Positions 2,818 through 31,172 of a DNA stretch of 40,156 nucleotides are shown here, one piece after another. The notes beneath the pieces are model-generated. The model saw only the letters and a list, made by a program, of their open reading frames with translations. It did not search any database and was not told where the DNA came from. This DNA is from Shigella phage ESh23, in sequence record ON528733. One strand, given 5' to 3'. The position numbers and the translations under genes are program-made. Each line of letters starts with the position of its first letter. The first letter of the stretch is position 1.

Positions 2818-5800
2818 ATGGCGACTCGTGGTATTCGCAACAATAACATCGGGAACATTCGTGTTTCCAAAGACCAGTGGGAAGGAGCTACAGGAGACGA
2901 TGGGTCTTTCGTAACGTTCGACACTCCTGACTCTGGCGTCCGCGCTCTGGCGAAGAACCTGATGTCCTACGGTCGCCAAGGCTACGACTCAATCGAGAAG
3001 ATTATCAACCGATGGGCACCACCTAGCGAGAACGACACCCAGTCTTACATCTACTCTGTGGTTGCTGCTACTGGCATCCCGGCGACCCAAAGTATCGACT
3101 TGACGAACCCTGATGTCCTCGCCTCTCTGTCTGAGGCTATCGGCTACCACGAGACTGGTTCCCGGTATGACCCTGAGGTCTACAAGCTCGGAGTCTCTCG
3201 CGCCTTAAGTGGTGCTGGAGGCATCACCACAAAGACCCCACCAGTAAGCGCTAACGTCTTCGACGCTCTCACGGAGGGCTTGAAGTCTAAACCTAAAGTC
3301 GCTCTGGGAGAGAACCTTCCGGGCGTTACTGGTATGAACATCGAAGGTCAGGAACCTGAGGCTCCTAACGAGTCTTTCGGAGAGATGTTCTATAAGTCAA
3401 CTGGCGAGACGCTGGACCAAAGAGCTGACCGCTCTACATGGTTCGGCTTCGGTGGAGCTGCTGAGGCTGAAGTGAAGAACTCTCTGGTTGGCGTGGCTGT
3501 CCGCGCTGGTCAGACTGAGGACTCGCTCGATGTCATTGGCGATGTGTTTAACCCTACCCGCTGGAATAACCACAAGTGGTCCCGCGAGGAGTTAGACCAG
3601 ATTCGTAACGCTGGGGTACTTCCTCAGTATTACGGAGTCATCACTGGTGGTTCGCCTCAGAATCTGACCGAGCTGATTAACTTGGCGCTGGAGAACCAGA
3701 AGTTAGACGCTGAGAAGGCTAAGGCCGGGACTGGCGCTCAACTGGCGGCTGGTGTGATTGGTGCTGGCGTGGACCCACTGACCTATGTTCCTATTGCCGG
3801 ACAGGTAGGTAAAGGCGGTAAGCTGGTTAACAAGATGTTCACCGTGGCTGCTCAGTCTGGTGCGTTGGCTGGCGTGTCTGAGATTGCTCGTACCTCTGTT
3901 GCTGGTGGTGATGCTCACGTTGCCGAGGCAATTATGGGCGGTGCTCTATTCGGTGGTGGCATGACTGCTATCGGGGACGCTCTTGGCAAGGTTCTTGGAA
4001 AGTCGACCAATGAGTTCGCTGGTCCAGCTACACGTCTTGAGGCACGTGAGACTGCTCGCAACGTTGATGGTCAGGACCTGTCGCGTCTACCAATCCGTGA
4101 AGGAGAGGAGACCTTCAGTCACCAAGGCGTTAAGTTTGCTGACGTTCCTAACGAGCCGGGAAGTGTGCGACTGGAAGATGGTTCAATCCTGATTGGCGAG
4201 AACCCACTGAACCCTAAGACACGCCAAGTCTTCGACGAGGTGATTGAGCCTGAACGTGCTGCTGCTGGTGTAAACCTTGGTGGACTTACCGAGATTGGCT
4301 TGAAGCTCTTGAGGTCTGAGAACCCTGAGATTCGCGGACTTGCCGCTGACTTGGTGCGTTCCCCTACAGGTATGCAGTCAGGTGCGAGCGGGAAGATTGG
4401 GACTACAGCGTCAGACGTATTCGAGCGACTTCGTGCAGTGGACCATCGGTTCTACAACGACATCGACGATGCGGTGACTGAGGCCCTGAAGGACCCGTAC
4501 TTCCAGACCAACTTCAACCGTGACACTGGGGCTTTCCGTCAGGACATCTACCAGCGTGTGGCTTTGGCTATCGAGGACGGAAGCGGGAACCTGAAGTCTG
4601 AGCTGACTCCGGGCGAACTGAAGGTCTACGACCTGCTGAAGAACCAGTTCGACGCTAAGCGTGAGATGATGGAGAACCCTGCGATGTTCGGTCGGGCGGA
4701 CGCTAAGACCATCTTCCCCGGCAGCCGCTTCAAGGGGACATACGTTCCTCACGTCTACAGCAACCAGATGAAGGAGCTGTACATCAAGGAGCTTGGAAGC
4801 CCTGAGGCGCTGCAAGAAGCAATCAAGAAGTCGTGGCTCACGAGCTATGCGTCAAGACCTGAGGTCAAAGCTCGGGTGGATGAGGCCCTGATGGAAGCTG
4901 ACCCTAATCTGACTCCAGAAGGACTTGCGGCTGCGGTGGATAAGTACGCCAATGATAAGGCTTACGGTATCTCTCACACCGACCTATTCGAGCGCTCGTC
5001 TGTCATGGAAGAGAACATCAACGGTCTGGTGGGTCTGGAGAACAACAACTTCCTTGAGGCCCGTAACCTGTTCGATAGCGATATGTCTATCATCCTGCCA
5101 AACGGTCAACCGTTCAATGTGAACAGTCTCCGTGAGTGGGACATGGATAAGATTGTCCCGGCGTACAACCGTCGAGTCAATGGGGACATTGCTATCATGG
5201 CTGGGACCGGGAAGACCACGAAGGAGATGAAGGACGCCGTAGAGACCCTGATGAACCGTGCTGGTGATGACGGTAAGCTGAAGGGTGAAGTCTCTACATT
5301 GCGTGACACCCTGAAGATTCTGACTGGTCGTGCTCGACGTGATGGTGCAGACGATGCGGCCTTCTCTACTGTGATGCGCACCATGACAGACCTGTCCTTC
5401 TTCGCCAAGAACGCCTATATGGGGGTACAGAACTTGACGGAGATTGGCGGTATGCTGGCCCGTGGTAACGTCCGTGCGATGCTGCATGGTATTCCTATCT
5501 TCCGTGACCTAGCCTTCCGTAGCAAGAAGATGGGAGCCTCGGAGATTAAGGAGCTTCATAACGTGGTCTTCGGAAAGGAGCTTGACGACTCAATCCGTCC
5601 GTCCAAACAGGATGTCATCGACCGCCTGCGAGCGTACAGCGACCTGAGTAAACCAGTAGCTACCGCTTTAGGTTCTGCCAAGTATTACACTGGGGAACTT
5701 GCGGTCCGCTCTCCGTTTACGAAGGTCCTGAACGGGACGACTAACTACCTGCTGGATGCTGGACGTCAAGGCTTCCTGTCTGACATCGTGGAGCACAGCC

Positions 5801-9326: not shown

Positions 9327-9521
9327 ATGATTGAGTTCGACTTCAAGAATGAGGTCCTCAAAGCCTCGCCTATCGTCGGGACCGCTGCGGCTGATGGTGC
9401 CAGTCGGTTCTTCTTTGGGTTAACACTCAACGAGTGGTTCTACGTCGCTGCTATCGCGTATACCGTGGTGCAGATTGGCGTACTGATTTACAAGACGATT
9501 AAGAGCGGAGGTAAGACATGA
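9327..9521 (+). CDS. class II holin (T7 gp17.5-like), 64 aa
   Basis: Strong match to recalled T7 gp17.5 (PIVGT, FFGLxLNEWFYVAAIAYTVVQIG); SD GGAGG upstream. Confidence 0.85.
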   Translation: MIEFDFKNEVLKASPIVGTAAADGASRFFFGLTLNEWFYVAAIAYTVVQIGVLIYKTIKSGGKT

Positions 9522-12384: not shown

Positions 12385-12534
12385 CATGGGTAAGACCAAA
12401 GCTGTTCTCAAAGCTCTGGCGACCAATAGAGCTACATACAGGTTTCTTGCTGCTGTTCTACTTGCTGCTGGCGTTACTGCTGGAAGTCAGTGGGTCGGGT
12501 GGGTCGAGACTCTCGTATGTACTCTGGTGTCTGA
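12385..12534 (+). CDS. small protein, T7 gp19.5-like, 49 aa
   Basis: 49 codons with GGAGG SD; contains TYRFL motif as in recalled T7 gp19.5 (49 aa); last gene before the genome end region. Confidence 0.55.
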
Positions 12535-12577
12535 GTGCCATTAACGCAATCATGGTAACAATCAACGAAAGACGGAC

Positions 12578-15716: not shown

Positions 15717-15754
15717 GAGGCCACTACATCTAGTGGTCTCAAAGATTATTTCTC
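15717..15754 (+). terminator. stem-loop (10 bp stem GAGGCCACTA/TAGTGGTCTC, loop CATC) followed by AAAGATTATTTCTC; possible weak terminator or processing site
   Basis: Read directly; U-tract is not contiguous with the stem. Confidence 0.3.
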
Positions 15755-15774: not shown

Positions 15775-15864
15775 ATGAACATCGGGTACTGGGTGTGCTT
15801 ATCTCCGGTCATCTTTCTGATAGCTTGGGGTCTTCTGGATGCAATCAAGCGAGGGTCTCTGTAA
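15775..15864 (+). CDS. 29-aa hydrophobic peptide (MNIGYWVCLSPVIFLIAWGLLDAIKRGSL)
   Basis: GAGGTG SD 7 nt upstream; stop overlaps next start (TAATG). Confidence 0.35.
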   Translation: MNIGYWVCLSPVIFLIAWGLLDAIKRGSL

Positions 15865-16058
15865 TGGGCTGGATACTTCTGGTCATCGGCTACGGGCTAA
15901 TACTCGCAGTCATCACGAAAGACATCATCAAGGCACGTAAAGTCTACCGCTTCCAGTATGTATCACTGGGGCGCTGGACTGTAAGACAACCGAACGGACG
16001 CTTTCTGCGCAACCTCGCAAACGTCTGGGATATAGCAACCTTAGGGAGTAAACTGTAA
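15864..16058 (+). CDS. small membrane protein, 65 aa (N-terminal TM helix, basic C-terminus)
   Basis: ATG-initiated version of track ORF 15768..16058; translationally coupled on both sides. Confidence 0.5.
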   Translation: MGWILLVIGYGLILAVITKDIIKARKVYRFQYVSLGRWTVRQPNGRFLRNLANVWDIATLGSKL

Positions 16059-16410: not shown

Positions 16411-16487
16411 TCAAGGTCGAAAGACTCTAAGTCAGGACTGAAGTGAAAGACTTTAGTGATAAGACAACAGTTATAAGGACTTTAAGT

Positions 16488-19169
16488 ATGAGCGTCATCT
16501 CAATTGACAAACACGACTTCTCTGATGTGTCGAATGCAATCGAACCTTTCAACGTACTGGCGGACCACTACGGGCAAGACCTCGCAGTCAAACAGCTCCA
16601 GCTAGAGCATGAGGCATACACTGAAGGTGAGCGACGTTTCATTAAGAACCTTGAGCGTCAGACTGAGCGCGGGGAACTGGCAGACAATCAGGTTGCTAAG
16701 CCACTGATGCAAACGCTGGTCCCAACCATCGCTAAGGCTGTGCGTGAGTGGCATGAAGGCCCGGACGGTAAGTCCTCGACCTCTCGCCCAAGCGTAGCGT
16801 TTACCATGCTGAGCACTGACGAGAAGGCTGTCAAAGACCGCTCTCTGCGCATCTCTCCAGAGTCCGCTGCGGTCATCATACTGAAGGTCATTCTCAGCAA
16901 GCTGGTCAAGCCTGAGGGCATCCCGATAACTCCTATGGCGTCCGCGATAGGTCGCACACTGGAAGATGAAATCCGCTTTGGTCGAATCCGTGAGCAGGAG
17001 CAGGAGCATTTCAAGAAGACCATAGCGGAGAACCTGAAGAAACGCGCTGGCGCAAGCTACAAGAAGGCCTACATGCAGGCAGTCGAGGCGTCTATGCTTG
17101 AGCAGGGACAACTGGCTGACGCGTGGGGGACTTGGAGTCCGACCGAGGCAGTTCATGTAGGCATAAAGATGCTAGAGCTGGTCATCCAGTCATCGCAACT
17201 GGTCGAGCTGAAGCGCTACGGTGCAGGCAATGCTGCGGTAGACGTCGAGATGGTTCACCTGTCTGACTTCTGGGTCAAGAAGATGGCTCAGCGTGGCTTC
17301 TCTCTGGCTGGAATTTCCCCAGTTTACCAGCCCTGCGTCGTGCCACCTAAGCCGTGGACCGGGGTGGTTGGCGGTGGGTACTGGGCTAAGGGTCGCAGGC
17401 CACTCCCTCTGATTCGCTTAGGGTCTAAGGCTGCGGTCCAGCGCTACGAAGACGTGTACATGCCTGAAGTGTATGAGGCAGTGAACATCATTCAGCAGAC
17501 TCCTTGGAAGGTAAACAAGAAGGTGCTGGAAGTGGTGAACATGGTCGAGAAGCTGAATAACACGCCTATCGCTGACATCCCTCAGATGGAGCCGCTGAAG
17601 CCTGAAGACTATGCGGGTGAGACCGAGGAGGAGCTTAAGGCTTGGAAGAAATCTGCGGCTGGCATCTATCGACGCGAGAAGGCCCGACAGTCTCGCCGTT
17701 TATCGCTGAGCTTCATCGTCTCACAGGCTAACAAGTTCTCTCAGTTCAAGGCCATATGGTTCCCGTACAACATGGACTGGCGAGGTCGTGTTTACGCAGT
17801 CCCGATGTTCAACCCTCAGGGCAACGATATGCAGAAGGGCCTGCTGACTCTGGCGGTAGGCAAGCCAATCGGTGCGGACGGCTTCAAATGGCTGAAGGTA
17901 CACGGTGCAAACTGCGCGGGTGTAGATAAAGTCACCTTTGAGGAGCGCATCAAGTGGGTTGAGGACAACCACGACAACATCCTAGCGACTGCTAAGAGTC
18001 CGATGGATAGCATTGACTGGTGGGGCCAGTTAGACTCTCCGTTCTGCTTCCTCGCGTTCTGCTTTGAGTATGCCGGGGTTATGCACCACGGGCTGAGCTA
18101 CTCCTGCTCTCTGCCTATCGCGTTCGATGGGTCCTGCTCTGGGATTCAGCACTTCAGCGCTATGCTCCGTGACCACGTTGGTGGACATGCGGTAAACCTG
18201 ACGCCTTCCGGTAAGGTCCAAGACATCTACCGCATTGTGTCCGACCGGGTGGAAGAACAGCTCAAGGAGCTGCTGGTCAACGGCAGTGACAACGAGGTGA
18301 AGACCTTCGAGGACAAGAAGACAGGCGAGATTACTGAACGTCTGGTCCTTGGGACCCGTGAGCTGGCCCGACAGTGGCTGACCTACGGGATGTCACGCTC
18401 GGTCACTAAACGCTCGGTAATGACTCTGGCCTATGGGTCGAAGGAATACGGGTTCGCGGACCAAGTGTTTGAGGATACCGTGATGCCAGCGATTGATAGT
18501 GGCAAGGGAGCAATGTTCACGGACCCAAGCCAAGCGTCTCGCTTCATGGCTAAGATGATATGGGACGCTGTGAGTGTGACCGTAGTGGCTGCGGTGGATG
18601 CAATGAAGTGGCTTCAGGGTGCGGCTAAACTGCTGGCTGCCGAGGTCAAGGACAAGAAGACCAAAGAGGTCCTTAAGCCTTGCCTTCCGGTTCACTGGGT
18701 AACACCTGATGGCTTCCCGGTATGGCAGGAATACCGCAAGAAAGACACAACGCGCCTGAATCTACTGTTCCTTGGGTCGTTCAACCTGCAACCGACAGTC
18801 AATAAGGGGTCGAAGAAAGAGCTGGACAAGCACAAGCAGGAGTCCGGTATCAGCCCTAACTTTGTACACTCACAGGATGGCAGTCACCTGAGGAAGACTG
18901 TGGTCCACACCCACCGCAAGTATGGCGTGATGTCCTTCGCGGTGATTCACGACAGCTTTGGGACCATACCAGCAGACGCTGAGTTCCTGTTCAAGGGAGT
19001 CCGTGAGACGATGGTCGAGACCTACCGCGACAACGATGTGCTGCAAGACTTCTACGAGCAGTTCGCGGACCAGCTTCACGAGAGCCAGCGCGACAAGTTG
19101 CCTGAGCTGCCTAAGCGCGGTAAACTGAACATCGAAGACATTCTGTTATCTGACTTTGCATTCGCCTGA
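16488..19169 (+). CDS. single-subunit DNA-directed RNA polymerase (T7 gp1-like), 893 aa
   Basis: Collinear with recalled T7 RNAP from N-terminus (DFSDxxxAxxPFNxLADHYG) to C-terminus (LHESQxDKxPxLPxxGxLNxxDILxSDFAFA); ATG 16488 preferred over GTG 16443. Confidence 0.97.
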   Translation: MSVISIDKHDFSDVSNAIEPFNVLADHYGQDLAVKQLQLEHEAYTEGERRFIKNLERQTERGELADNQVAKPLMQTLVPTIAKAVREWHEGPDGKSSTSRPSVAFTMLSTDEKAVKDRSLRISPESAAVIILKVILSKLVKPEGIPITPMASAIGRTLEDEIRFGRIREQEQEHFKKTIAENLKKRAGASYKKAYMQAVEASMLEQGQLADAWGTWSPTEAVHVGIKMLELVIQSSQLVELKRYGAGNAAVDVEMVHLSDFWVKKMAQRGFSLAGISPVYQPCVVPPKPWTGVVGGGYWAKGRRPLPLIRLGSKAAVQRYEDVYMPEVYEAVNIIQQTPWKVNKKVLEVVNMVEKLNNTPIADIPQMEPLKPEDYAGETEEELKAWKKSAAGIYRREKARQSRRLSLSFIVSQANKFSQFKAIWFPYNMDWRGRVYAVPMFNPQGNDMQKGLLTLAVGKPIGADGFKWLKVHGANCAGVDKVTFEERIKWVEDNHDNILATAKSPMDSIDWWGQLDSPFCFLAFCFEYAGVMHHGLSYSCSLPIAFDGSCSGIQHFSAMLRDHVGGHAVNLTPSGKVQDIYRIVSDRVEEQLKELLVNGSDNEVKTFEDKKTGEITERLVLGTRELARQWLTYGMSRSVTKRSVMTLAYGSKEYGFADQVFEDTVMPAIDSGKGAMFTDPSQASRFMAKMIWDAVSVTVVAAVDAMKWLQGAAKLLAAEVKDKKTKEVLKPCLPVHWVTPDGFPVWQEYRKKDTTRLNLLFLGSFNLQPTVNKGSKKELDKHKQESGISPNFVHSQDGSHLRKTVVHTHRKYGVMSFAVIHDSFGTIPADAEFLFKGVRETMVETYRDNDVLQDFYEQFADQLHESQRDKLPELPKRGKLNIEDILLSDFAFA

Positions 19170-19181
19170 GGAGGCATCTAC

Positions 19182-19382
19182 ATGAAATTCGCACACAAGC
19201 AAACTGGCGTTAAAGGCGGAACTCAAATCGTGACCGTGACCGAACATAATGGCAAGGGTCTGGTAAAGACCACGGTCATTCCAACCGAGATGTCAAAGCA
19301 GCTTAACGTCCCATTCAAATGGCTGGTGCAGCAGGTTGAGAAGTCACACGAACAGGCCTTGACCGAGGCTGTGACGAAATGA
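19182..19382 (+). CDS. hypothetical protein, 66 aa (inserted after the RNAP gene relative to T7)
   Basis: Strong SD GAGGAGG 7 nt upstream of ATG. Confidence 0.6.
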   Translation: MKFAHKQTGVKGGTQIVTVTEHNGKGLVKTTVIPTEMSKQLNVPFKWLVQQVEKSHEQALTEAVTK

Positions 19383-19456
19383 CGGACCTTCAGTGGCTGG
19401 CCTTATGGCTGGCCTTCTTAGCAGTGTACACTTTAATCCAACGCAGAAGAGGTTAA
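19379..19456 (+). CDS. 25-aa hydrophobic peptide (MTDLQWLALWLAFLAVYTLIQRRRG)
   Basis: ATG overlaps upstream stop (ATGA); single TM-like segment; no clear SD. Confidence 0.3.
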   Translation: MTDLQWLALWLAFLAVYTLIQRRRG

Positions 19457-19460
19457 CCAT

Positions 19461-19931
19461 ATGTTTGGTAAGTCAAAACTTAAAGCGCAAATCAAAGAGT
19501 TGAGCATGAAGGCGGCATACTTGGAGCGAGCCGTAGAGGTCCGTGACAAGGACAACGAGAGGCTGAAGGATAAACTTGCTGAGTCCGAGCGCAGACGCTT
19601 AACGCCGCCAGAGCCTGTGACTGTGAAGCGTATGGTAGGCCTGAAGTTCAGGGCGCTGTTCAATGGCCTCTATCAGCCGACTGAGTTCAAGACCGGGCCT
19701 GGGCCATGTGGCAAGACAGTGACTCACTTCACCACGAGTCGTACCGAGCGGGAGCTGACTATCCACCAGCACCACACGGATGGCTCTCAGAAGGACTTTG
19801 AGTATCGACTTAGCGACATCGACGGTCGAATCCAGTACGACTATGAGCAAGTTAAAGTATACGGAGAAGAGGCCGAACGCGAGCGAGCGCTTCAGGCATT
19901 CGTTCGGGTAAGACCTCGCGTCGTCATCTAA
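19461..19931 (+). CDS. hypothetical protein with N-terminal coiled-coil, 156 aa
   Basis: SD AGAGG upstream; ends at the phi1.1-position promoter. Confidence 0.6.
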   Translation: MFGKSKLKAQIKELSMKAAYLERAVEVRDKDNERLKDKLAESERRRLTPPEPVTVKRMVGLKFRALFNGLYQPTEFKTGPGPCGKTVTHFTTSRTERELTIHQHHTDGSQKDFEYRLSDIDGRIQYDYEQVKVYGEEAERERALQAFVRVRPRVVI

Positions 19932-19948
19932 ACTATCACTATAGGATT
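19929..19948 (+). promoter_or_regulatory. phage RNAP promoter (phi1.1 position): TAAACTATCACTATAGGATT
   Basis: Conserved promoter motif. Confidence 0.7.
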
Positions 19949-19991
19949 AGACTCAAGGTCATGACTCAAAGTCGTGGCCTTTATGATTAAC
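19949..19991 (+). promoter_or_regulatory. conserved hairpin element (RNase III site, R1.1 position)
   Basis: AGACTCAAGGTCATGACTCAAAGTCGTGGCCTTTATGATTAAC; same family as 9786 and 27027. Confidence 0.4.
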
Positions 19992-20020
19992 CCTAACTCA
20001 ATACAATCAGGAGCTACACC

Positions 20021-20200
20021 ATGTATCAGAATACCATCAACTTCGAGCGCATCCGTGAACGTCAGCAGACTGAAGGCTACATTCCGAAGGGCCGCAAGCT
20101 GAACAAGACTAAACGTGGAGGAGGCGTGAAGGGTGCTTTCCGCAACGCTGAAGGTAAAGACTCGCTGGTTAACCAAGAGAAGTATTTCGTAGGAGCATAA
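20021..20200 (+). CDS. T7 gp1.1-like small basic protein, 59 aa
   Basis: GRKLNKTKR matches recalled T7 gp1.1; SD CAGGAG. Confidence 0.6.
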   Translation: MYQNTINFERIRERQQTEGYIPKGRKLNKTKRGGGVKGAFRNAEGKDSLVNQEKYFVGA

Positions 20201-20204
20201 CGCT

Positions 20205-20468
20205 ATGGGCCGACTTTATAGTGGCAACCTCAACGCTTTCAGAGCAGCGTGTAACAGGCTCTATCAGTTAGACTTCGCTGTTATATCTCAGGAGTTTCAA
20301 GACCTTGCGTCTCGCCAAGAGTGCATGAAACTCAGTGTCGAGGACCGGGCGGGTAACATATTCGCTCGTGAGTCCTTCGCACACTATGATGAAGACGTAA
20401 TGTACAACACTGCAACCGCCTTCCTTAACGGTCTCGCTGACCAACTCGACACATGGAGCAAAATATAA
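20205..20468 (+). CDS. inhibitor of host dGTPase (T7 gp1.2-like), 87 aa
   Basis: MGRLYSGNLNAFRAA...HYDEDV closely matches recalled T7 gp1.2 (MGRLYSGNLAAFKAA...). Confidence 0.85.
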   Translation: MGRLYSGNLNAFRAACNRLYQLDFAVISQEFQDLASRQECMKLSVEDRAGNIFARESFAHYDEDVMYNTATAFLNGLADQLDTWSKI

Positions 20469-21523
20469 TGACTACGACTATCAAAACTAACCCGCATCGC
20501 GCTGTAGATTACTCTGAGTCCGGCGTTAAGAAAGCACTGGAAGCTGCCGGGTCACTGGAAGCTGAAGTGAAGTATGACGGTGTGCGCCTGAACCTCCCGG
20601 TATTCCCAACTGGCGAGACCCAATGGCTGAGCCGCGAGTCTAAACCTCTTCCGGCCCTGAGCTGGATGAATACATCCGGTGAGGACATCGGGGCGACCAA
20701 GGCAAGCGACTGGCGGTGGTTCCTGAAGCAGGCTGGCTACGAAGGAACTGGCCTGATGATTGACGGCGAGGTCATGGTCAAAGGCGTGGACTTCAATACA
20801 TCTTCGGGCCTAATTCGCACGAAGAACCTCAAGCCTAACAACTATGAGTATTCGATGGACGCCCTTGAAAGCGAGTGGACCAAGGACATGAAGGGTCGCC
20901 AGTTCCGGTTAATCCCTGAGATGGTGACTGTGGTAGTTTACGGTATCATTGACATTAACGTCATCACTGACCCGAAAGCCGAAGGTCCTATCCATAGCGT
21001 CACTCGCCTGAAGGCCGAAGCTATCGTCCCTCTCCTCCAGAAATACTTCCCGGAAATCGACTGGGTTCTGTCTGAGTCACACACGGTCTATGACCTTGAG
21101 TCGCTCAACTCCCTGTACGAAGAGAAGCGTCTGGAAGGACACGAGGGTCTGGTAGTCAAGGACCCGCTGGGTAAGTACAAGCGTGGCAAGAAGTCAGGCA
21201 TGTGGAAGATGAAGCCTGAGGAGACCGTAGACGGGACCGTGTGTGGCCTCGTGTGGGGGACTCCGGGTAAGGCCAACGAAGGTAAGGTCATCGGCTTCGA
21301 GGTCCTGCTGGAGGATGGCATGGTGGTCAATGCCTGCGGTCTGACTGAAACACAGAAGGACGAGTTCACCACAGCGGTAAAAGAGTACCCAGAAGGTGAG
21401 GAGTTCTTCAACGGCTGGCAGTGTGAAGTCCTCTTCATGGAGCGGTTCCCAGATGGCTCCCTTCGTCATCCCAGCTTCAAGTGCTGGCGTGGAACTGAAG
21501 ACAATCCAACCGTTAAGAGTTAA
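20468..21523 (+). CDS. ATP-dependent DNA ligase (T7 gp1.3-like), 351 aa
   Basis: IKTNP, EVKYDGVR (adenylation lysine motif), MIDGEVMVKGVDFNTSSGLIRTK, EGHEGLVVKDP, KRGKKSGMWKMKPE, DGSLRHPSF; ATG overlaps gp1.2 stop. Confidence 0.95.
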   Translation: MTTTIKTNPHRAVDYSESGVKKALEAAGSLEAEVKYDGVRLNLPVFPTGETQWLSRESKPLPALSWMNTSGEDIGATKASDWRWFLKQAGYEGTGLMIDGEVMVKGVDFNTSSGLIRTKNLKPNNYEYSMDALESEWTKDMKGRQFRLIPEMVTVVVYGIIDINVITDPKAEGPIHSVTRLKAEAIVPLLQKYFPEIDWVLSESHTVYDLESLNSLYEEKRLEGHEGLVVKDPLGKYKRGKKSGMWKMKPEETVDGTVCGLVWGTPGKANEGKVIGFEVLLEDGMVVNACGLTETQKDEFTTAVKEYPEGEEFFNGWQCEVLFMERFPDGSLRHPSFKCWRGTEDNPTVKS

Positions 21524-21533
21524 CTAAACGTCA

Positions 21534-21565
21534 ACCCAGTGGTCTTCGTACTGCTGGGTCTTTTC
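21534..21565 (+). terminator. intrinsic terminator-like hairpin + CTTTTC (early terminator TE position, after ligase)
   Basis: 10-bp stem (ACCCAGTGGT/ACTGCTGGGT with 2 G-U pairs) followed by T-run. Confidence 0.5.
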
Positions 21566-21586
21566 GCATTCTGGAGGACCATACTC

Positions 21587-21679
21587 ATGCTTATGCTCTA
21601 TATTACATTAGTTTTCTTGTTGTCATGCCTGCTGGTCTACGGCCTTACGTGGCTGGTAGGGGAGTGCCTAGACGACTAA
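21587..21679 (+). CDS. 30-aa hydrophobic peptide (MLMLYITLVFLLSCLLVYGLTWLVGECLDD), T7 gene 1.4/1.5 position
   Basis: SD GGAGGA 8 nt upstream. Confidence 0.35.
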   Translation: MLMLYITLVFLLSCLLVYGLTWLVGECLDD

Positions 21680-21697
21680 GCTATCACTATAGGACAA
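21677..21697 (+). promoter_or_regulatory. phage RNAP promoter: TAAGCTATCACTATAGGACAA
   Basis: Conserved promoter motif (G at the position where others have A). Confidence 0.65.
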
Positions 21698-21725
21698 CAA
21701 TAACTTCGACCTAAGGAGGCCGACC

Positions 21726-21986
21726 ATGTTTAAGAACTTAATGTTCAACCGTTATTCCAATACCTTCCATCTGTCCCACAACCCGTTCGCTTGCATTAAG
21801 CGCAACGAGAAGCTGGGCTACTTCGGGAAGGCCGTTAAGCTGTCACCTACAGTCTTCGCTTTGATTACTCCGGGCAAAGCTGAAGAGGCTCGACAGAAGC
21901 GTGAGACCCACGTACCAGTGGTCTACACCAAGTGGCCTCGCGTTCGTCTGTTCGTTGAGTTTGTGAAGGAGGTGGTCAATGACTAA
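21726..21986 (+). CDS. hypothetical class II protein, 86 aa (T7 gene 1.6 position)
   Basis: SD AAGGAGG upstream; synteny. Confidence 0.6.
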   Translation: MFKNLMFNRYSNTFHLSHNPFACIKRNEKLGYFGKAVKLSPTVFALITPGKAEEARQKRETHVPVVYTKWPRVRLFVEFVKEVVND

Positions 21987-22287
21987 AAATGAACAGCCTA
22001 TCTACACGGGAGGTTCTGCTGACTACTATCAGGTCCACATAAAGAGCACCACTACCCCCGGTCGACCTGAGTACATCGCTGAGTGCAACGACATCATCGA
22101 AGCTCTGGGTATGAACTTTGCGGAAGGCAATGCGTTCAAGGCAATATGGCGTCGAGCCGCCCAGCGGACCTTGGGTCTGCGTAAAGCTGGCGCTAAAGAT
22201 GATGGTCTTTACGATGCAGAGAAAGTCGAGTTCTTCGGTGCTCGTATGGTAGCTCAGAGTAAGGCTGGTAATCATGACTCCGAGTGA
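21979..22287 (+). CDS. hypothetical protein, 102 aa; possibly related to the gp1.7 nucleotide-kinase family (GGSADYYQ motif)
   Basis: Start overlaps upstream stop; GGSxxYYQ motif recalled from DUF3310-type phage proteins; assignment uncertain. Confidence 0.55.
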   Translation: MTKNEQPIYTGGSADYYQVHIKSTTTPGRPEYIAECNDIIEALGMNFAEGNAFKAIWRRAAQRTLGLRKAGAKDDGLYDAEKVEFFGARMVAQSKAGNHDSE

Positions 22288-22369
22288 ATGGTGCGAGATG
22301 ATGTTCGAGAGGACAGGTAACACTGACTACCTCGAAATGTATAACATCTGGAAAGGGAGAGGGCTATGA
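22274..22369 (+). CDS. small ORF, 31 aa (T7 gene 1.8 position)
   Basis: Fills the gap between flanking genes; overlapping start/stop with neighbours. Confidence 0.3.
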
Positions 22370-22530
22370 GTCAGGACGAGAAGAAGTACATCGTGGAGCT
22401 TGAGGGTCGCGTTCAGTCCTTTGAGGTCCCGGTATACGCCAAGTCTCTGGACGAGGCGACCCTAAAGTCTCAGGAGTACGAAGATGCTGGTTTCGTGGTA
22501 GGCCGCATCCGACCTGAGCTGCACGACTAA
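22366..22530 (+). CDS. inhibitor of host RNA polymerase (T7 gp2-like), 54 aa
   Basis: [14 protein letters not shown] matches recalled T7 gp2 (SFEVPIYAETLDEA). Confidence 0.75.
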
Positions 22531-22547
22531 ACTATCACTTTAGGAAC
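22528..22547 (+). promoter_or_regulatory. variant phage promoter (phi2.5 position): TAAACTATCACTTTAGGAAC
   Basis: Consensus with T at -2. Confidence 0.55.
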
Positions 22548-22577
22548 ACCTTAACTTTAACTAGGAGATTTACACCG

Positions 22578-23276
22578 ATGGCTAAAGAGCAACTGAAGAC
22601 TTTCACCACTCCGGTAGCTGGTATCGTTGAGCCTTACGCATGGCTTAACAAAGCAGACACCAAGTACAACGAGCGCGGTGAACATAAAGTCAACCTGACA
22701 TTCGACCTGAGCGACCAGAAGGTCCGCAAGATGATTGATGTCTTGCAGAAGATTCACGACGATGCGTATGCGAAAGCACTCGCAGACCACGAGAAGAACC
22801 CACCTCAGGTTCAGCGTGGCAAGAAGCCTATCGAACCACGTGAAGGCGACATGCCGTGGATTGAGAACGGTGACGGCACTGTTACCCTGAAGTTCAAATG
22901 CTTTGCGTCTTACTTGAAAGACGGCAAGTCCGAGCCTATCGTATTACGGTTCTACGACACCGATGCTAAACTCATCCGTGACGTCCCGAATATTGGCTCA
23001 GGGTCTAAGCTGAAGGTCAAGTTCAAAGTCCTGCCGTTCAAATGGAACGCTGCGACTGGTGCTGGCGTGAAGCTGCAACTGGAGTCCTGCCTGCTGGTAG
23101 AACTGAAAGAGTGGTCCGGCGATGGCACTGGTGGCGATGGTGGCTGGGGTGACGATGAAGACATCGGCTCCGGTGGCTACAAAGCGTCTACTGACGGTGA
23201 CTTCGGGTCTGACGACTTCGGTGAAGATGCCGAGGGTGGTGATGACTCTGAGTCCGGTGGCGATTACGACTTCTAA
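22578..23276 (+). CDS. single-stranded DNA-binding protein (T7 gp2.5-like), 232 aa
   Basis: RGKKP, EGDMPW, NGDGT, KFKC, GSKLKVK, VKLQLES; acidic C-terminal tail ending DF as in T7 gp2.5. Confidence 0.95.
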   Translation: MAKEQLKTFTTPVAGIVEPYAWLNKADTKYNERGEHKVNLTFDLSDQKVRKMIDVLQKIHDDAYAKALADHEKNPPQVQRGKKPIEPREGDMPWIENGDGTVTLKFKCFASYLKDGKSEPIVLRFYDTDAKLIRDVPNIGSGSKLKVKFKVLPFKWNAATGAGVKLQLESCLLVELKEWSGDGTGGDGGWGDDEDIGSGGYKASTDGDFGSDDFGEDAEGGDDSESGGDYDF

Positions 23277-23278
23277 TC

Positions 23279-23731
23279 GTGGCTGCATGGACACCAAAAC
23301 GGGGGCACTCTGTGGGTGCCTACCGCTCTGGACTTGAGGCCAAGAACCAGCAGTGGCTGGAGCAGAATGGCGTCAAAGCGGAGTACGAAAGCCATTATAT
23401 CAACTATGTGATTCCGGCTTCCGACCACAAGTACACACCAGACTTCATACTTCCGAACGGAATCATCGTCGAGACAAAAGGTATCTTCGACAGTGAGGAC
23501 CGTAAGAAGCATATGCTGGTGCGCGAGCAACACCCTGAGCTGGACATCCGGTTCGTGTTCTCGTCCTCCCGCTCCAAGCTGTACAAAGGGTCCCCGACCA
23601 CGTATGGCGCATGGTGCGAAAAGAACGGCTTTAAGTTTGCCGACAAGTTTATCCCGGTTGAGTGGCTGAAAGAGGCGACTGTACGTCTGCCCTCAGGTAT
23701 ACTCATCCCGAAGAAAGGAGCTAAGAAATGA
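23279..23731 (+). CDS. endonuclease I, Holliday junction resolvase (T7 gp3-like), 150 aa, GTG start
   Basis: GAYRSGLE, YVIPAS, YTPDFxLPNGIxVETKG, DRKKHxLxREQHPELDIRxVFSSSRxKLYKGSPT. Confidence 0.95.
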   Translation: MAAWTPKRGHSVGAYRSGLEAKNQQWLEQNGVKAEYESHYINYVIPASDHKYTPDFILPNGIIVETKGIFDSEDRKKHMLVREQHPELDIRFVFSSSRSKLYKGSPTTYGAWCEKNGFKFADKFIPVEWLKEATVRLPSGILIPKKGAKK

Positions 23732-23952
23732 CTAAAGAAGTGCAGGTAGTCCGCGAGCGACTGACCATTGATAAAATCCCGGTGGGCTACGCGTTCATCG
23801 TTCATGGTCGACCGGACGAAGTGTACGTGAAGATTAGCAACTCGCATGTCTTCAACCATAAGCGCCTCCAGATGCACACGACTGTTAGCGAGCGCTTCAA
23901 GTCTCACCTGAATCTCGTAATCGTCGAGCTGGTGGTGTACAATGGTAAGTAA
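23728..23952 (+). CDS. hypothetical protein, 74 aa, inserted between endonuclease I and lysozyme genes
   Basis: Strong SD AAAGGAG; overlapping start and stop with neighbours. Confidence 0.6.
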   Translation: MTKEVQVVRERLTIDKIPVGYAFIVHGRPDEVYVKISNSHVFNHKRLQMHTTVSERFKSHLNLVIVELVVYNGK

Positions 23953-24400
23953 GGTTCAGTTCAAACCGCGTACAGTAACTGACGCAATCTTCGTCCACTG
24001 TAGTGCGACCCAACCGTCTCAGGACATCGGGGTAGACACCATCCGAATGTGGCACAAGCAGCAGGGCTGGCTGGACGTAGGCTATCACTTCGTCATCAAG
24101 CGTGATGGCACTGTGGAGTCTGGACGTCCGGTCGATGTAGTAGGGTCACACGTTAAGGACTGGAACTCCCGGTCCGTAGGCGTCTGCCTTGTAGGTGGAA
24201 TTGACGCCAAGGGTAAGTTTGAAGCTAACTTCACACCTGCCCAGATGAGCGCTCTACGAAACAAGCTGGCCGAACTGAAGGCATTGTACCCTCAGGCAGA
24301 CATCAAGGCTCACCACGATGTAGCACCAAAGGCTTGCCCAAGTTTTGACTTGCAGCGCTGGCTTAATACTAACGAACTGGTCACTTCCGACCGAGGCTAA
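23942..24400 (+). CDS. lysozyme / N-acetylmuramoyl-L-alanine amidase (T7 gp3.5-like), 152 aa
   Basis: DAIFVHCSAT, WLDVGYHF, KRDGTVE, GVCLVGGID, KACPSFDL, NELVTSDRG match recalled T7 gp3.5. Confidence 0.95.
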   Translation: MVSKVQFKPRTVTDAIFVHCSATQPSQDIGVDTIRMWHKQQGWLDVGYHFVIKRDGTVESGRPVDVVGSHVKDWNSRSVGVCLVGGIDAKGKFEANFTPAQMSALRNKLAELKALYPQADIKAHHDVAPKACPSFDLQRWLNTNELVTSDRG

Positions 24401-30189: not shown

Positions 30190-31048
30190 GAAGAAGATTG
30201 CTCTGGTGCTTGATGGCGACTATCTGGTCTTCTCCTCTATGGCTGCGGCTGAAGATGAGACTGACTGGGGCGACGACATCTGGACCATTATCTGCGACCA
30301 CGAGAAAGCCCGTCGTATCCTTGAGAACACCATCGCTGAAATCGTCAAGAAGCGCAAGGCGTGGAAAGACGCTAAGATTGTGATGTGCTTCACCGATGAT
30401 GCTAACTGGCGTAAGGACGTTCTGCCTACCTATAAGGCCAACCGTAAAGGTTCTCGCAAGCCTGTTGGTTACAAGAAGTTCGTAGCTGAAGTGATGGCTG
30501 ACCCACGGTTCAACAGCTTCCTGAAGCCAACGCTTGAGGGCGATGACTGTATGGGAATCATTGGTACACGACCTCAGATTGTCGGATGTGACCATGCTGT
30601 GCTGGTGTCCTGTGATAAGGACTTCAAGACTATCCCGAACTGTGAGTTCTTCTGGTTAACCACTGGTGAAATCCTGAGCCACACGACTGCCGAGGCAGAT
30701 TACTGGCACATGGAGCAGACCATCAAGGGTGACATGACGGATGGCTACGGCGGTATTCCGGGGTACGGTGAGGACACTACCCGTGCTTTCCTTGACGAGC
30801 CGTACTACTTCGTACAAGAGACCCGCGAGCTGAAGACTGGCAAGAACAAAGGTCAGCTCAAGGTCGAGTGGAAGAAGTATCCGAAGCGCGAAGACCAGAC
30901 GCTGTGGGACTGCATGGTGACTCTGGCTGCTAAAGCCGGGATGACCGAACAGGAACTACTGGTCCAAGCTCAGGTAGCTCGCATCTGTCGCGCATCTGAC
31001 TACGACCCTAAGTCCAAGGAGGTCATTCTGTGGACACCCTCCATGTAG
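30179..31048 (+). CDS. 5'-3' exonuclease (T7 gp6-like), 289 aa
   Basis: VLDGDYLVF, CDHEKARRILE, YKANRK, KPVGY, CDKDFKTIPNC, TIKGDMTDGYGGIPG, LWDC; GGAGG SD before ATG 30179. Confidence 0.95.
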   Translation: MGSEKKIALVLDGDYLVFSSMAAAEDETDWGDDIWTIICDHEKARRILENTIAEIVKKRKAWKDAKIVMCFTDDANWRKDVLPTYKANRKGSRKPVGYKKFVAEVMADPRFNSFLKPTLEGDDCMGIIGTRPQIVGCDHAVLVSCDKDFKTIPNCEFFWLTTGEILSHTTAEADYWHMEQTIKGDMTDGYGGIPGYGEDTTRAFLDEPYYFVQETRELKTGKNKGQLKVEWKKYPKREDQTLWDCMVTLAAKAGMTEQELLVQAQVARICRASDYDPKSKEVILWTPSM

Positions 31049-31054
31049 TGTATT

Positions 31055-31078
31055 GGGCCGGACTTCTGGCCCTTTACT
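31055..31078 (+). terminator. hairpin GGGCCGG-ACTT-CTGGCCC followed by TTTACTT; possible weak terminator after exonuclease gene
   Basis: Read directly; U-tract imperfect. Confidence 0.3.
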
Positions 31079-31172
31079 TACTGTACACGTTCAGCGGGAC
31101 AAACCGTCCTAAGAATTGAGTTTAACCGATAGTCATAACCTATCGCCCTACAGATACCCATAGGTGAAACAC

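What the first reader, a model, noticed from the sequence alone, without database searches (positions are those of the whole stretch)
21587..21679. Recurrent tiny hydrophobic peptides (25-30 aa) scattered through early and class II regions
Three unrelated single-TM mini-ORFs with RBS or translational coupling occur at 15775 (29 aa), 19379 (25 aa) and 21587 (30 aa; MLMLYITLVFLLSCLLVYGLTWLVGECLDD, good SD). Tiny membrane peptides in phages can act as host membrane-protein inhibitors. Their number here is notable, although each call alone is weak.
Basis: seen in the sequence. Interest (0 to 1): 0.35.

Follow-up and report, generated by a model that had tools for sequence, protein, structure and literature searches.

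The report
Tiny membrane-peptide genes in T7-like phage
The 30-codon hydrophobic reading frame is a real, selected accessory gene of a T7-like (Kayfunavirus) phage; it sits in the slot where phage T7 keeps its long-known but uncharacterised tiny hydrophobic genes 1.4 and 1.5, so it is genuine but fairly ordinary.

Summary
The window is a circularly permuted Kayfunavirus genome, 96% identical to Shigella phage SFPH2. All three mini-ORFs exist exactly as described. All are intact in relatives and under purifying selection (in-frame pS/pN 0.43/0.15, 0.63/0.17, 0.36/0.09; shifted frames show pS≈pN).

The focal ORF (21587-21679, 30 aa) lies between the early terminator TE and the phi1.6-type phage promoter. 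This is the slot of T7 genes 1.4 and 1.5. GGAGG lies 9 nt upstream, and length changes among relatives are in frame.

AlphaFold predicts one helix (residues 2-29, pLDDT 95). The peptide has 25 uncharged residues, then a conserved G-E/A-C-L-D-D end.

It is an accessory gene. About 10 of 239 related GenBank phages carry it, and most Kayfunaviruses have TE abutting the promoter. By contrast, 51/51 other Studiervirinae loci carry at least one tiny hydrophobic ORF in this slot.

No PHROG, Pfam or NCBIfam family matches it. Only one cluster was found among 1.84 billion representative proteins. Homology to T7 gp1.4 or gp1.5 is not demonstrable.

The most likely role is a single-pass inner-membrane micro-protein that modulates host physiology. 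That role is inferred, not shown.

Verdict: real genes, a new member of a known kind, low-to-moderate interest.

The parts
19927..19949 (+). Phage-RNAP promoter upstream of the 1.1/1.2/ligase block. It is the nearest upstream phage promoter, so its transcripts would reach the mini-ORF once past TE.
   Evidence: CACTATAGG at 19937 within the phage consensus ACTAAACTATCACTATAGG. That phage RNAP reads through TE is established T7 biology, inferred here.
20453..21523 (+). DNA ligase (gene 1.3), the upstream neighbour.
   Evidence: Pfam DNA_ligase_A_M/C on homologues.
21534..21565 (+). Early terminator TE: a 10-bp stem-loop at 21534-21559 followed by UCUUUU.
   Evidence: Fold of the 77-nt stretch 21524-21600, -20.8 kcal/mol in total, which contains the 10-bp hairpin. 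The same hairpin is annotated 'terminator TE' in phage EcoDS1. It is the same position as T7 TE.
21573..21577 (+). Shine-Dalgarno GGAGG, 9 nt before the ATG.
   Evidence: TCTGGAGG is kept in 10 of the 11 relative loci that carry the ORF; L094 has TCCGGAGG, which still contains GGAGG.
21587..21679 (+). Focal mini-gene: 30 aa, a single hydrophobic helix with a conserved G-E/A-C-L-D-D C-terminus.
   Evidence: There are 8 distinct nucleotide versions, all intact, with pS 0.43 vs pN 0.15. Helix spans residues 2-29, pLDDT 94.8. Gene callers predict it independently in metagenome contigs.
21675..21697 (+). Class II phage promoter (phi1.6 equivalent). Its conserved ACTAA supplies the mini-gene's stop codon.
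   Evidence: The homologous site is annotated 'phi1.6' in EcoDS1.
21726..21986 (+). Gene 1.6 homologue, the downstream neighbour.
15775..15864 (+). Mini-gene 1: 29 aa, a hydrophobic helix then a basic KRGSL tail. It is TAATG-coupled to gp0.6.
   Evidence: There are 14 distinct nucleotide versions; 13 are intact at the same length, and L014 lacks the stop and reads on. pS 0.63 vs pN 0.165. It is present in 94 phage records.
15864..16058 (+). The 'gp0.6' of Kayfunaviruses: 64 aa with an N-terminal hydrophobic helix.
   Evidence: phrog_2385, E = 1e-26. EcoDS1/K1F annotation. KD 2.39.
19379..19456 (+). Mini-gene 2: 25 aa, hydrophobic helix then RRRG. It is ATGA-coupled to the upstream ORF.
   Evidence: There are 21 distinct nucleotide versions, all intact, with pS 0.36 vs pN 0.089. 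It is present in 21/21 Kayfunavirus loci that cover the site.

Best explanation
The ORF at 21587-21679 is a genuine, translated accessory gene of a Kayfunavirus sub-lineage.

Expression. It lies just past the host-RNAP terminator TE and just before the phi1.6-type promoter. It would therefore be expressed from phage-RNAP transcripts that start at the promoter at about 19937 and run through ligase and TE, and from any host-RNAP read-through of TE. That places it with the DNA-metabolism (class II) genes.

Product. The product is a 30-residue single alpha-helix with 25 uncharged residues. The helix would insert post-translationally into the inner membrane. Its short acidic, Cys-containing end (G-E/A-C-L-D-D) would sit at the membrane surface, plausibly on the periplasmic side.

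Role. It is the positional counterpart of T7 genes 1.4/1.5. Like them, it most probably acts as a dispensable modulator of host physiology, by helix-helix contact with a host inner-membrane protein or by self-association that perturbs the membrane. It is unlikely to be a structural or replication component.

Shown: the ORF exists, has a Shine-Dalgarno sequence, is conserved and selected at the protein level, has a helical hydrophobic character, is accessory, and occupies that slot.

Inferred: translation in vivo, membrane insertion, topology and target.

The ORFs at 15775 and 19379 are likewise real small hydrophobic genes, with the opposite charge layout (basic C-tails, so N-out/C-in by the positive-inside rule).
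For: Coding signature. There are 8 distinct nucleotide versions and all are intact. In-frame pS is 0.43 against pN 0.15, whereas shifted frames give 0.20/0.24. Variable columns by codon position are 9/9/22. Length variation is in frame, through an (ATGCTT)n repeat. GGAGG is retained in all carriers.

Independent gene calls. Gene callers predict the 30-32 aa product in metagenome contigs.

Context. The TE hairpin and phi1.6 promoter are identified by fold, by the promoter consensus and by the EcoDS1 annotation. T7 has the layout TE - 1.4 - phi1.5 - 1.5 - phi1.6 - 1.6, with hydrophobic 51-aa and 29-aa products.

Slot occupancy. 51/51 non-Kayfunavirus Studiervirinae loci carry at least one hydrophobic mini-ORF in the ligase-1.6 slot.

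Structure. Helix 2-29, pLDDT 94.8; GRAVY 1.66, 25-residue uncharged run, net charge -3. The ORF RNA has no structure beyond chance (z = -0.47) and there is no Rfam hit.

Literature on the T7 counterparts. gp1.4 is dispensable (PMC12153263). Gene 1.5 knock-outs arise repeatedly in ligase-deleted T3/T7 lines (PMC2696425). T7 gp1.5 inhibits E. coli growth in minimal medium, and stringent-like RNAP alleles relieve this (PMC13483052).
Against: There is no direct evidence of translation, membrane location or any phenotype.

The gene is absent from most Kayfunaviruses (about 10 of 239 GenBank relatives; 1 of 21 IMG/VR Kayfunavirus loci has it, and 1 more has a different tiny hydrophobic ORF). Any role is therefore dispensable or host-specific.

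Homology to T7 gp1.4/gp1.5 is not demonstrable (hhalign probabilities 1% and 18%; no PHROG or Pfam hit). Transferring their phenotypes rests on position and architecture only.

Conservation does not show a significant helical stripe (permutation p = 0.11), so there is no positive sign of a specific interaction face.

The last codon and the stop overlap the promoter consensus, which explains part of the C-terminal conservation.

Only 8 distinct sequences were available, and they are related, so the selection statistics are indicative rather than strong.
Confidence: 0.6

Rival explanations
1. Chance ORF. The ~90 nt are merely spacer between TE and the promoter, and the hydrophobic reading frame is a by-product of T-rich sequence.
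For: Most Kayfunaviruses do without it and have TE abutting the promoter. The ORF is very short. It is not annotated in SFPH2, CtuP_B1 or EclP_26.
Against: In-frame pS is about 3x pN, while both other frames give pS≈pN. The third-position excess has p = 7e-5. The start, Shine-Dalgarno sequence and stop are kept in 8 distinct versions that diverge down to 62% nucleotide identity. Indels are multiples of 3. Shuffles give 0.04 such ORFs per strand.
Confidence: 0.04
2. Translation matters but the peptide does not. The ORF would be a leader-type cistron whose translation keeps the mRNA 3' of TE covered by ribosomes or tunes local RNA stability or processing.
For: It sits immediately after a strong hairpin and ends inside a promoter. 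It is dispensable. Its N-terminus varies in length through an (ML)n repeat.
Against: Amino-acid sequence is constrained (pN 0.15 vs pS 0.43). There are 14 invariant residues, including the G-x-C-L-D-D end. Gene 1.6 has its own promoter and Shine-Dalgarno sequence 47 nt downstream, so there is no coupling. There is no RNA structure beyond chance.
Confidence: 0.07
3. It is a membrane-damaging toxin of the type I-toxin or holin-like kind. Its job would be to depolarise the inner membrane, for host shut-off, lysis timing or exclusion of superinfecting phage, rather than to bind a specific host protein.
For: It has the same size and single-helix layout as TisB/Hok-class peptides (my knowledge). AlphaFold gives a single helix. 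Many T7 small proteins are growth-inhibitory when expressed alone (PMC13483052).
Against: It has no basic residues at all, whereas the known type I toxins I recall have basic termini. The dedicated holin is elsewhere (9327-9521). Membrane damage during DNA replication would be costly. Nothing was tested.
Confidence: 0.15
4. It is a lipoprotein signal peptide. The LLSC at residues 11-14 would be a lipobox, giving a 17-residue lipopeptide after cleavage.
For: L-L-S-C fits the lipobox pattern. T7 gp1.5 also has I-V-G-C with Cys at residue 14.
Against: Cys14 is Trp in 5 of the 8 distinct family versions. There is no basic n-region. The would-be mature part is itself hydrophobic.
Confidence: 0.01

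Closest known systems
Phage T7 gene 1.4 (51 aa; Pfam DUF5464 / phrog_17655)
   Same: The position is the same: the first ORF after terminator TE and before a class II phage promoter upstream of gene 1.6. Both are hydrophobic and of unknown function, and gp1.4 is non-essential (PMC12153263). They share a short V-G-A/E-C-x-L motif.
   Different: gp1.4 is 51 aa with a basic N-terminus (MFKKVGK) and two hydrophobic segments. There is no HMM match and hhalign probability is 1.2%.
Phage T7/T3 gene 1.5 (29 aa; phrog_12128) and its analogues in other Studiervirinae
   Same: They occupy the same ligase-1.6 slot. They are about 25-30 aa, with an N-terminal hydrophobic helix followed by acidic residues, often with Cys near the end. 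They are dispensable, and sequence diverges strongly between genera (PMC2696425).
   Different: Gene 1.5 follows its own promoter (phi1.5), whereas this ORF precedes the promoter. Its acidic tail is longer (DDDMPDGHA). There is no PHROG hit and hhalign probability is 18%.
27-28-aa ORF after ligase in the non-Kayfunavirus loci L044, L049, L061, L065, L068 and L070 (MTPLEITLTCILVFIFGMVVGFCGACD)
   Same: It has the same length and the same place upstream of the promoter. It has a hydrophobic helix ending in G-A-C-D. It gives the best profile match: 56% probability over 17 columns.
   Different: It overlaps the ligase stop codon and has no TE in front of it. The similarity is not statistically secure.
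Bacterial small inner-membrane regulators (AcrZ, MgrB, MgtS, KdpF class) and type I toxins (TisB, Hok)
   Same: Size of about 25-50 aa and a single transmembrane helix (from my knowledge of these families, not tested here).
   Different: There is no sequence relation (NCBIfam and Pfam give nothing). There are no basic flanking residues. No target is known.

Membership tests
T7 gp1.4 family (Pfam PF17552 / DUF5464; phrog_17655) | Sequence match to the family profile | tested here: not met
   T7 gp1.4 hits DUF5464 at 2e-36 and phrog_17655 at 1e-34. The window peptide hits nothing. hhalign probability is 1.2%.
T7 gp1.4 family (Pfam PF17552 / DUF5464; phrog_17655) | Position: first ORF after TE, before the class II promoter preceding gene 1.6 | tested here: met
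T7 gp1.4 family (Pfam PF17552 / DUF5464; phrog_17655) | About 51 aa, basic N-terminus, two hydrophobic segments | tested here: not met
   30 aa, no basic residue, one uninterrupted helix.
T7/T3 gp1.5 family (phrog_12128) | Sequence match to the family profile | tested here: not met
   T7 gp1.5 hits phrog_12128 at 1e-22. The window peptide has no hit. hhalign probability is 18%.
T7/T3 gp1.5 family (phrog_12128) | Under 30 aa; hydrophobic N-terminal helix followed by an acidic tail; located between ligase and gene 1.6 | tested here: met
   30 aa, a 25-residue hydrophobic run, then E26/D29/D30; the slot is confirmed. The acidic tail is much shorter than in gp1.5.
T7/T3 gp1.5 family (phrog_12128) | Transcribed from its own promoter immediately upstream (phi1.5) | tested here: not met
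   No promoter lies between TE and the ATG. The only promoter starts at the ORF's last codon.
Bacterial lipoprotein signal peptide | Conserved lipobox Cys and a basic n-region | tested here: not met
   Cys14 is Trp in 5 of the 8 distinct versions, and there is no Lys or Arg.
Single-pass small membrane protein (generic class) | One hydrophobic alpha-helix long enough to span the bilayer | tested here: met
   25 uncharged residues, KD(17) 2.69, AlphaFold helix 2-29 at pLDDT 94.8.
Single-pass small membrane protein (generic class) | Actual translation and membrane insertion | not testable with these tools
   Needs ribosome profiling, tagging and fractionation.
Real protein-coding gene | Frame conserved, with purifying selection on amino acids in relatives | tested here: met
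   pS 0.43 vs pN 0.15 in frame and about 0.20/0.24 out of frame; 9/9/22 variable columns; Fisher p = 7e-5.

The most novel reading that the evidence does not exclude
The ligase-1.6 slot of all Studiervirinae may hold one functional class of micro-protein: a single membrane helix plus a short acidic, often Cys-bearing, end. Its sequence would turn over so fast that homology is invisible, while its function is conserved. That function could be tied to DNA metabolism or ligase dependence (parallel gene 1.5 knock-outs in ligase-deleted T3/T7, PMC2696425) or to stringent-response physiology (T7 gp1.5, PMC13483052). The 30-aa peptide here would be the Kayfunavirus version, retained in only a few lineages, perhaps because it matters on particular hosts (Shigella, Enterobacter, Salmonella Typhi, Cronobacter).
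Probability: 0.2. Interest if true: 0.5.

Novelty: new member of a known kind. Interest (0 to 1): 0.27.

Why it matters
Practically, three or more real genes are missing from most annotations of this phage group. The focal one is unannotated in SFPH2, CtuP_B1 and EclP_26. The 25-aa gene is unannotated even in the curated EcoDS1 record. These phages are used as therapy candidates and engineering chassis, so unlisted membrane-active peptides are worth knowing about.

Biologically, these peptides add to the set of tiny hydrophobic phage proteins with no known function, such as T7 1.4, 1.5 and 19.5. The presence/absence polymorphism among near-identical genomes offers natural isogenic comparisons for finding what they do. 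None of this changes current understanding of T7-like phages.

Tried and rejected
- **Lipoprotein idea.** LLSC at residues 11-14, and IVGC in T7 gp1.5, suggested a lipobox. Rejected, because Cys14 is Trp in 5 of the 8 distinct versions.
- **The longer 46-aa GTG-start ORF (21539).** IME278 annotates it. Rejected, because the GTG lies inside the TE stem with no Shine-Dalgarno sequence. The same GTG frame also gives meaningless ORFs in phages that lack the gene.
- **Homology to T7 gp1.4, gp1.5 and the 27-28-aa ORF found after ligase in several non-Kayfunavirus loci.** hhalign gave probabilities of 1%, 18% and 56%, so this is inconclusive.
- **A conserved helix face as a sign of an interaction surface.** Not significant for the focal peptide (p = 0.11) or the 25-aa peptide (p = 0.20), and marginal for the 29-aa peptide (p = 0.03).
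- **Family libraries.** PHROGs, Pfam and NCBIfam gave nothing for the three peptides.
- **Large protein databases.** A full HMM scan of 1.84 billion representatives found only its own cluster.
- **RNA-element alternatives.** No Rfam hit in the window, and the ORF region folds no better than shuffles.
- **tblastn with the 25-aa peptide.** It returned nothing. I suspect the low-complexity filter or the short query. Conservation was instead shown on the fetched loci.
- **Literature.** I found no ribosome-profiling or proteomic evidence for these ORFs, and no paper on Kayfunavirus small membrane proteins.

Full report
**What the window is.** Megablast of 20000-24000 finds 239 phage records, almost all Studiervirinae of the genus Kayfunavirus. 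The best is Shigella phage SFPH2 at 96%. The gene order is that of T7 but circularly permuted: gp15/16/17 at the start, RNA polymerase at 16443-19169, ligase at 20453-21523, gene 1.6 at 21726-21986, and so on. All genes are on the + strand. Phage promoters share the consensus ACTAAACTATCACTATAGG.

**The observation.** The three ORFs are exactly as described.

- The focal ORF, 21587-21679, encodes MLMLYITLVFLLSCLLVYGLTWLVGECLDD, with GGAGG 9 nt upstream.
- The 29-aa ORF (15775-15864) has a GAGGTGA Shine-Dalgarno sequence. Its stop overlaps the start of the next gene (TAATG).
- The 25-aa ORF (19379-19456) overlaps the preceding stop (ATGA).

A composition test shows such ORFs are rare by chance. 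Only two of 74 small + strand ATG-ORFs pass a hydropathy cut-off of 2.0. Shuffles give 0.04.

**Are they genes?** I fetched 80 RNA-polymerase-centred loci from IMG/VR, annotated GenBank relatives and metagenome contigs.

- Focal ORF: 8 distinct nucleotide versions, diverging down to 62% nucleotide identity. All are intact and all keep GGAGG upstream. Length differences are in frame and arise from an (ATGCTT)n repeat giving (ML)2-3.
- Nei-Gojobori proportions are pS 0.43 and pN 0.15 in frame, against 0.20/0.24 and 0.20/0.24 in the two shifted frames. Variable columns by codon position are 9/9/22 (Fisher p = 7e-5).
- The 29-aa ORF has 14 versions, pS 0.63 and pN 0.165, with variable columns 12/8/28. 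Thirteen versions are intact at the same length, and L014 lacks the stop and reads on. The 25-aa ORF has 21 versions, all intact, pS 0.36 and pN 0.089, with variable columns 12/7/19.

All three are therefore protein-coding genes as far as comparative sequence can show.

**Anatomy of the focal locus.** Directly after the ligase stop lies a 10-bp hairpin followed by UCUUUU. The 77-nt stretch around it folds at -20.8 kcal/mol. The identical element is annotated 'terminator TE' in phage EcoDS1, and the promoter that follows is annotated 'phi1.6' there. The mini-gene sits between them.

Its last codon and TAA stop are part of the promoter's conserved GACTAA. No promoter lies between TE and the ATG. 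The message must therefore come from upstream. The sources would be phage-RNAP transcripts from the promoter at about 19937, which in T7 biology ignore TE, and any host-RNAP read-through of TE. This step is inferred.

Gene 1.6 has its own promoter and Shine-Dalgarno sequence, so there is no translational coupling downstream. The ORF RNA has no structure beyond chance (z = -0.47), and Rfam finds nothing in the window.

**Comparison with T7.** T7 has TE - gene 1.4 - phi1.5 - gene 1.5 - phi1.6 - gene 1.6.

- Gene 1.4 is 51 aa: MFKKVGKFLAALAAILTLAYILAVYPQVALVVVGACYLAAVCACVWSIVNW.
- Gene 1.5 is 29 aa: MMYLMPLLIVIVGCLALHCSDDDMPDGHA.

The focal ORF is thus the positional equivalent of gene 1.4 and resembles gene 1.5 in size and layout.

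Across the other Studiervirinae in my sample, 51 of 51 loci with both flanks carry at least one tiny hydrophobic ORF in this slot. Typically it is a helix followed by acidic residues, for example MSINLILIIVFILAAIVWSMNDEPPKGA, MWLILFAIVATLGLMVADDNIWPDC and MTPLEITLTCILVFIFGMVVGFCGACD.

Sequence homology to the window's peptide is not demonstrable. hhalign gives 56% with the last of these, 18% with the 1.5 group and 1% with T7 gp1.4. PHROG, Pfam and NCBIfam give no hits, although T7 gp1.4 and gp1.5 hit their own families strongly.

**Distribution.** Within Kayfunavirus the gene is rare.

- tblastn finds it in 10 of the 239 or so related records: SFPH2 (two records), IME278, vB_EclP_26, CHRF_30001, CHRF_30030, BHUENT8, ENT2, a contig labelled IME_EF3 and vB_CtuP_B1.
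- Among 21 IMG/VR Kayfunavirus loci, only SFPH2 has it, and one other has a different 28-aa hydrophobic ORF.
- Three clusters exist in the 5.8-billion-protein collection, and one representative among 1.84 billion.

Most relatives have TE followed directly by the promoter. They keep 'TCTGGGCCACCA...GACCCTAAGC', which matches the flanks of the ORF ('TCTGGAGGACCA...GACGACTAAGC'). This looks like one ~87-nt deletion followed by decay of the Shine-Dalgarno sequence; the direction of change is an inference.

Other relatives carry an HNH endonuclease or an unrelated 59-aa ORF in the slot. In vB_EclP_26, the TE + mini-gene module follows a different gene, not ligase. The slot is therefore a site of cassette turnover, and the gene is accessory. 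It also evolves faster than its neighbours: 62-66% nucleotide identity against 85-92% in the most distant carriers.

**The product.** AlphaFold2, run with a three-sequence alignment, gives one helix, residues 2-29, mean pLDDT 94.8. The peptide has GRAVY 1.66, a 25-residue uncharged run, no basic residue and net charge -3. Fourteen positions are invariant, including the C-terminal L-V-G-x-C-L-D-D. D30 and the stop are partly constrained by the promoter.

A 30-residue chain finishes translation before it leaves the ribosome tunnel, so insertion would be post-translational (general knowledge). With no basic residues and an acidic C-end, a C-out orientation is plausible but unproven.

The lipoprotein reading of LLSC is rejected, because Cys14 is Trp in 5 of the 8 distinct versions. 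A test for a conserved helix face was not significant (p = 0.11).

The other two peptides have basic C-tails (KRGSL, RRRG). By the positive-inside rule they would be N-out/C-in.

**Likely function.** Nothing computational identifies a target. The literature on the positional counterparts says the following.

- T7 gene 1.4 can be deleted (PMC12153263).
- Gene 1.5 is under 30 aa, of unknown function and poorly conserved between T3 and T7. Knock-outs of it arose in parallel in ligase-deleted T3 and T7 lines (PMC2696425).
- T7 gp1.5 inhibits E. coli growth in minimal medium, in a way relieved by stringent-like RNAP alleles, with no direct partner found (PMC13483052).

I therefore commit to this reading: a dispensable, class II-expressed, single-pass inner-membrane micro-protein that modulates host physiology through contacts in the membrane. 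I put about 0.9 on 'real gene', about 0.7 on 'membrane helix', and much less on any particular target.

The rivals are a chance ORF, a translation-only leader, a depolarising toxin and a lipoprotein signal. They are weighed in the rival list. The first and last are essentially excluded by the data.

**Verdict.** The 'notable number' and 'host membrane-protein inhibitor' parts are not established. T7-like phages routinely carry such genes, and this window has more of them (gp0.6 at 15864, gp19.5 at 12386, and a 29-aa ORF at 31030). It is a new, narrowly distributed member of a known but uncharacterised kind.

Noticed in passing
window 31030-31119 (+): A fourth tiny hydrophobic ORF: 29 aa, GTG start, MDTLHVVYWAGLLALYLLYTFSGTNRPKN. 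It overlaps the last 19 nt of the gene 6 exonuclease. It is conserved at 65-96% amino-acid identity in 25 phage records and almost never annotated separately.
   Followed up: partly
window 12386-12544 (+): A 52-aa ORF with a hydrophobic segment and a Cys/acidic end (…TLVCTLVSECH). It is a gp19.5-family protein (NCBIfam NF040465, 9e-19). This is another small hydrophobic T7-group protein of unknown function.
   Followed up: partly
window 15864-16058 (+) and relatives L010, L016, L017, L020 upstream of their gp0.6: The slot just before gp0.6 is also a cassette site. Relatives carry the 29-aa gene, or an unrelated 53-55-aa two-helix ORF (MKFTIIALYVTIILSWLTAVLTDGNALRLGWLAVDIIFSPVGVVRGILMWIGLAG), or a 34-aa hydrophobic ORF. 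L004, L019 and L024 carry nothing; there the mini-gene's Shine-Dalgarno sequence and ATG are fused precisely to gp0.6.
   Followed up: partly
window 15717-15740 (+): A perfect 10-bp hairpin (GAGGCCACUA-CAUC-UAGUGGUCUC) lies between the kinase-like gene and the 29-aa gene, with no U-tract. It is conserved in relatives. It may be an RNase III processing site by analogy with T7, but this was not tested.
   Followed up: no
window 21587-21598 and loci L085, L087, L091: The N-terminus of the focal peptide varies through a hexanucleotide repeat (ATGCTT)2-3, giving ML-ML(-ML). The upstream ATG is retained in L094, where the second ATG is lost. In CtuP_B1 the upstream repeat unit is missing and translation would start at the downstream ATG.
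   Followed up: partly
window 21544-21549 (TE loop): The window and SFPH2 have CTTCGT where the other relatives aligned have a C-UUCG-G or C-UUCGC-G loop. This breaks the loop-closing pair of the TE hairpin. It might weaken termination and raise read-through into the mini-gene.
   Followed up: no
loci L004, L012, L018, L030, L047 (ligase-1.6 intergenic region): The same slot holds an HNH homing-endonuclease-like ORF in several relatives (…IDHINRDPSDNRIENLR…). L008 and L017 hold a 59-aa basic ORF there instead. The slot is therefore an insertion hot spot.
   Followed up: no
locus L089 (EcoDS1) 5486-5563 and 1563-1649: Even the hand-curated EcoDS1 record does not annotate the 25-aa gene. For the 29-aa gene's region it annotates a different-frame ORF (1493-1636).
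   Followed up: partly
locus L085 (vB_EclP_26): The TE + mini-gene module is preceded by a small 'Gp2.8'-labelled gene rather than by ligase. The window's ligase 3' end has no match there, which indicates mosaic rearrangement around the module.
   Followed up: no
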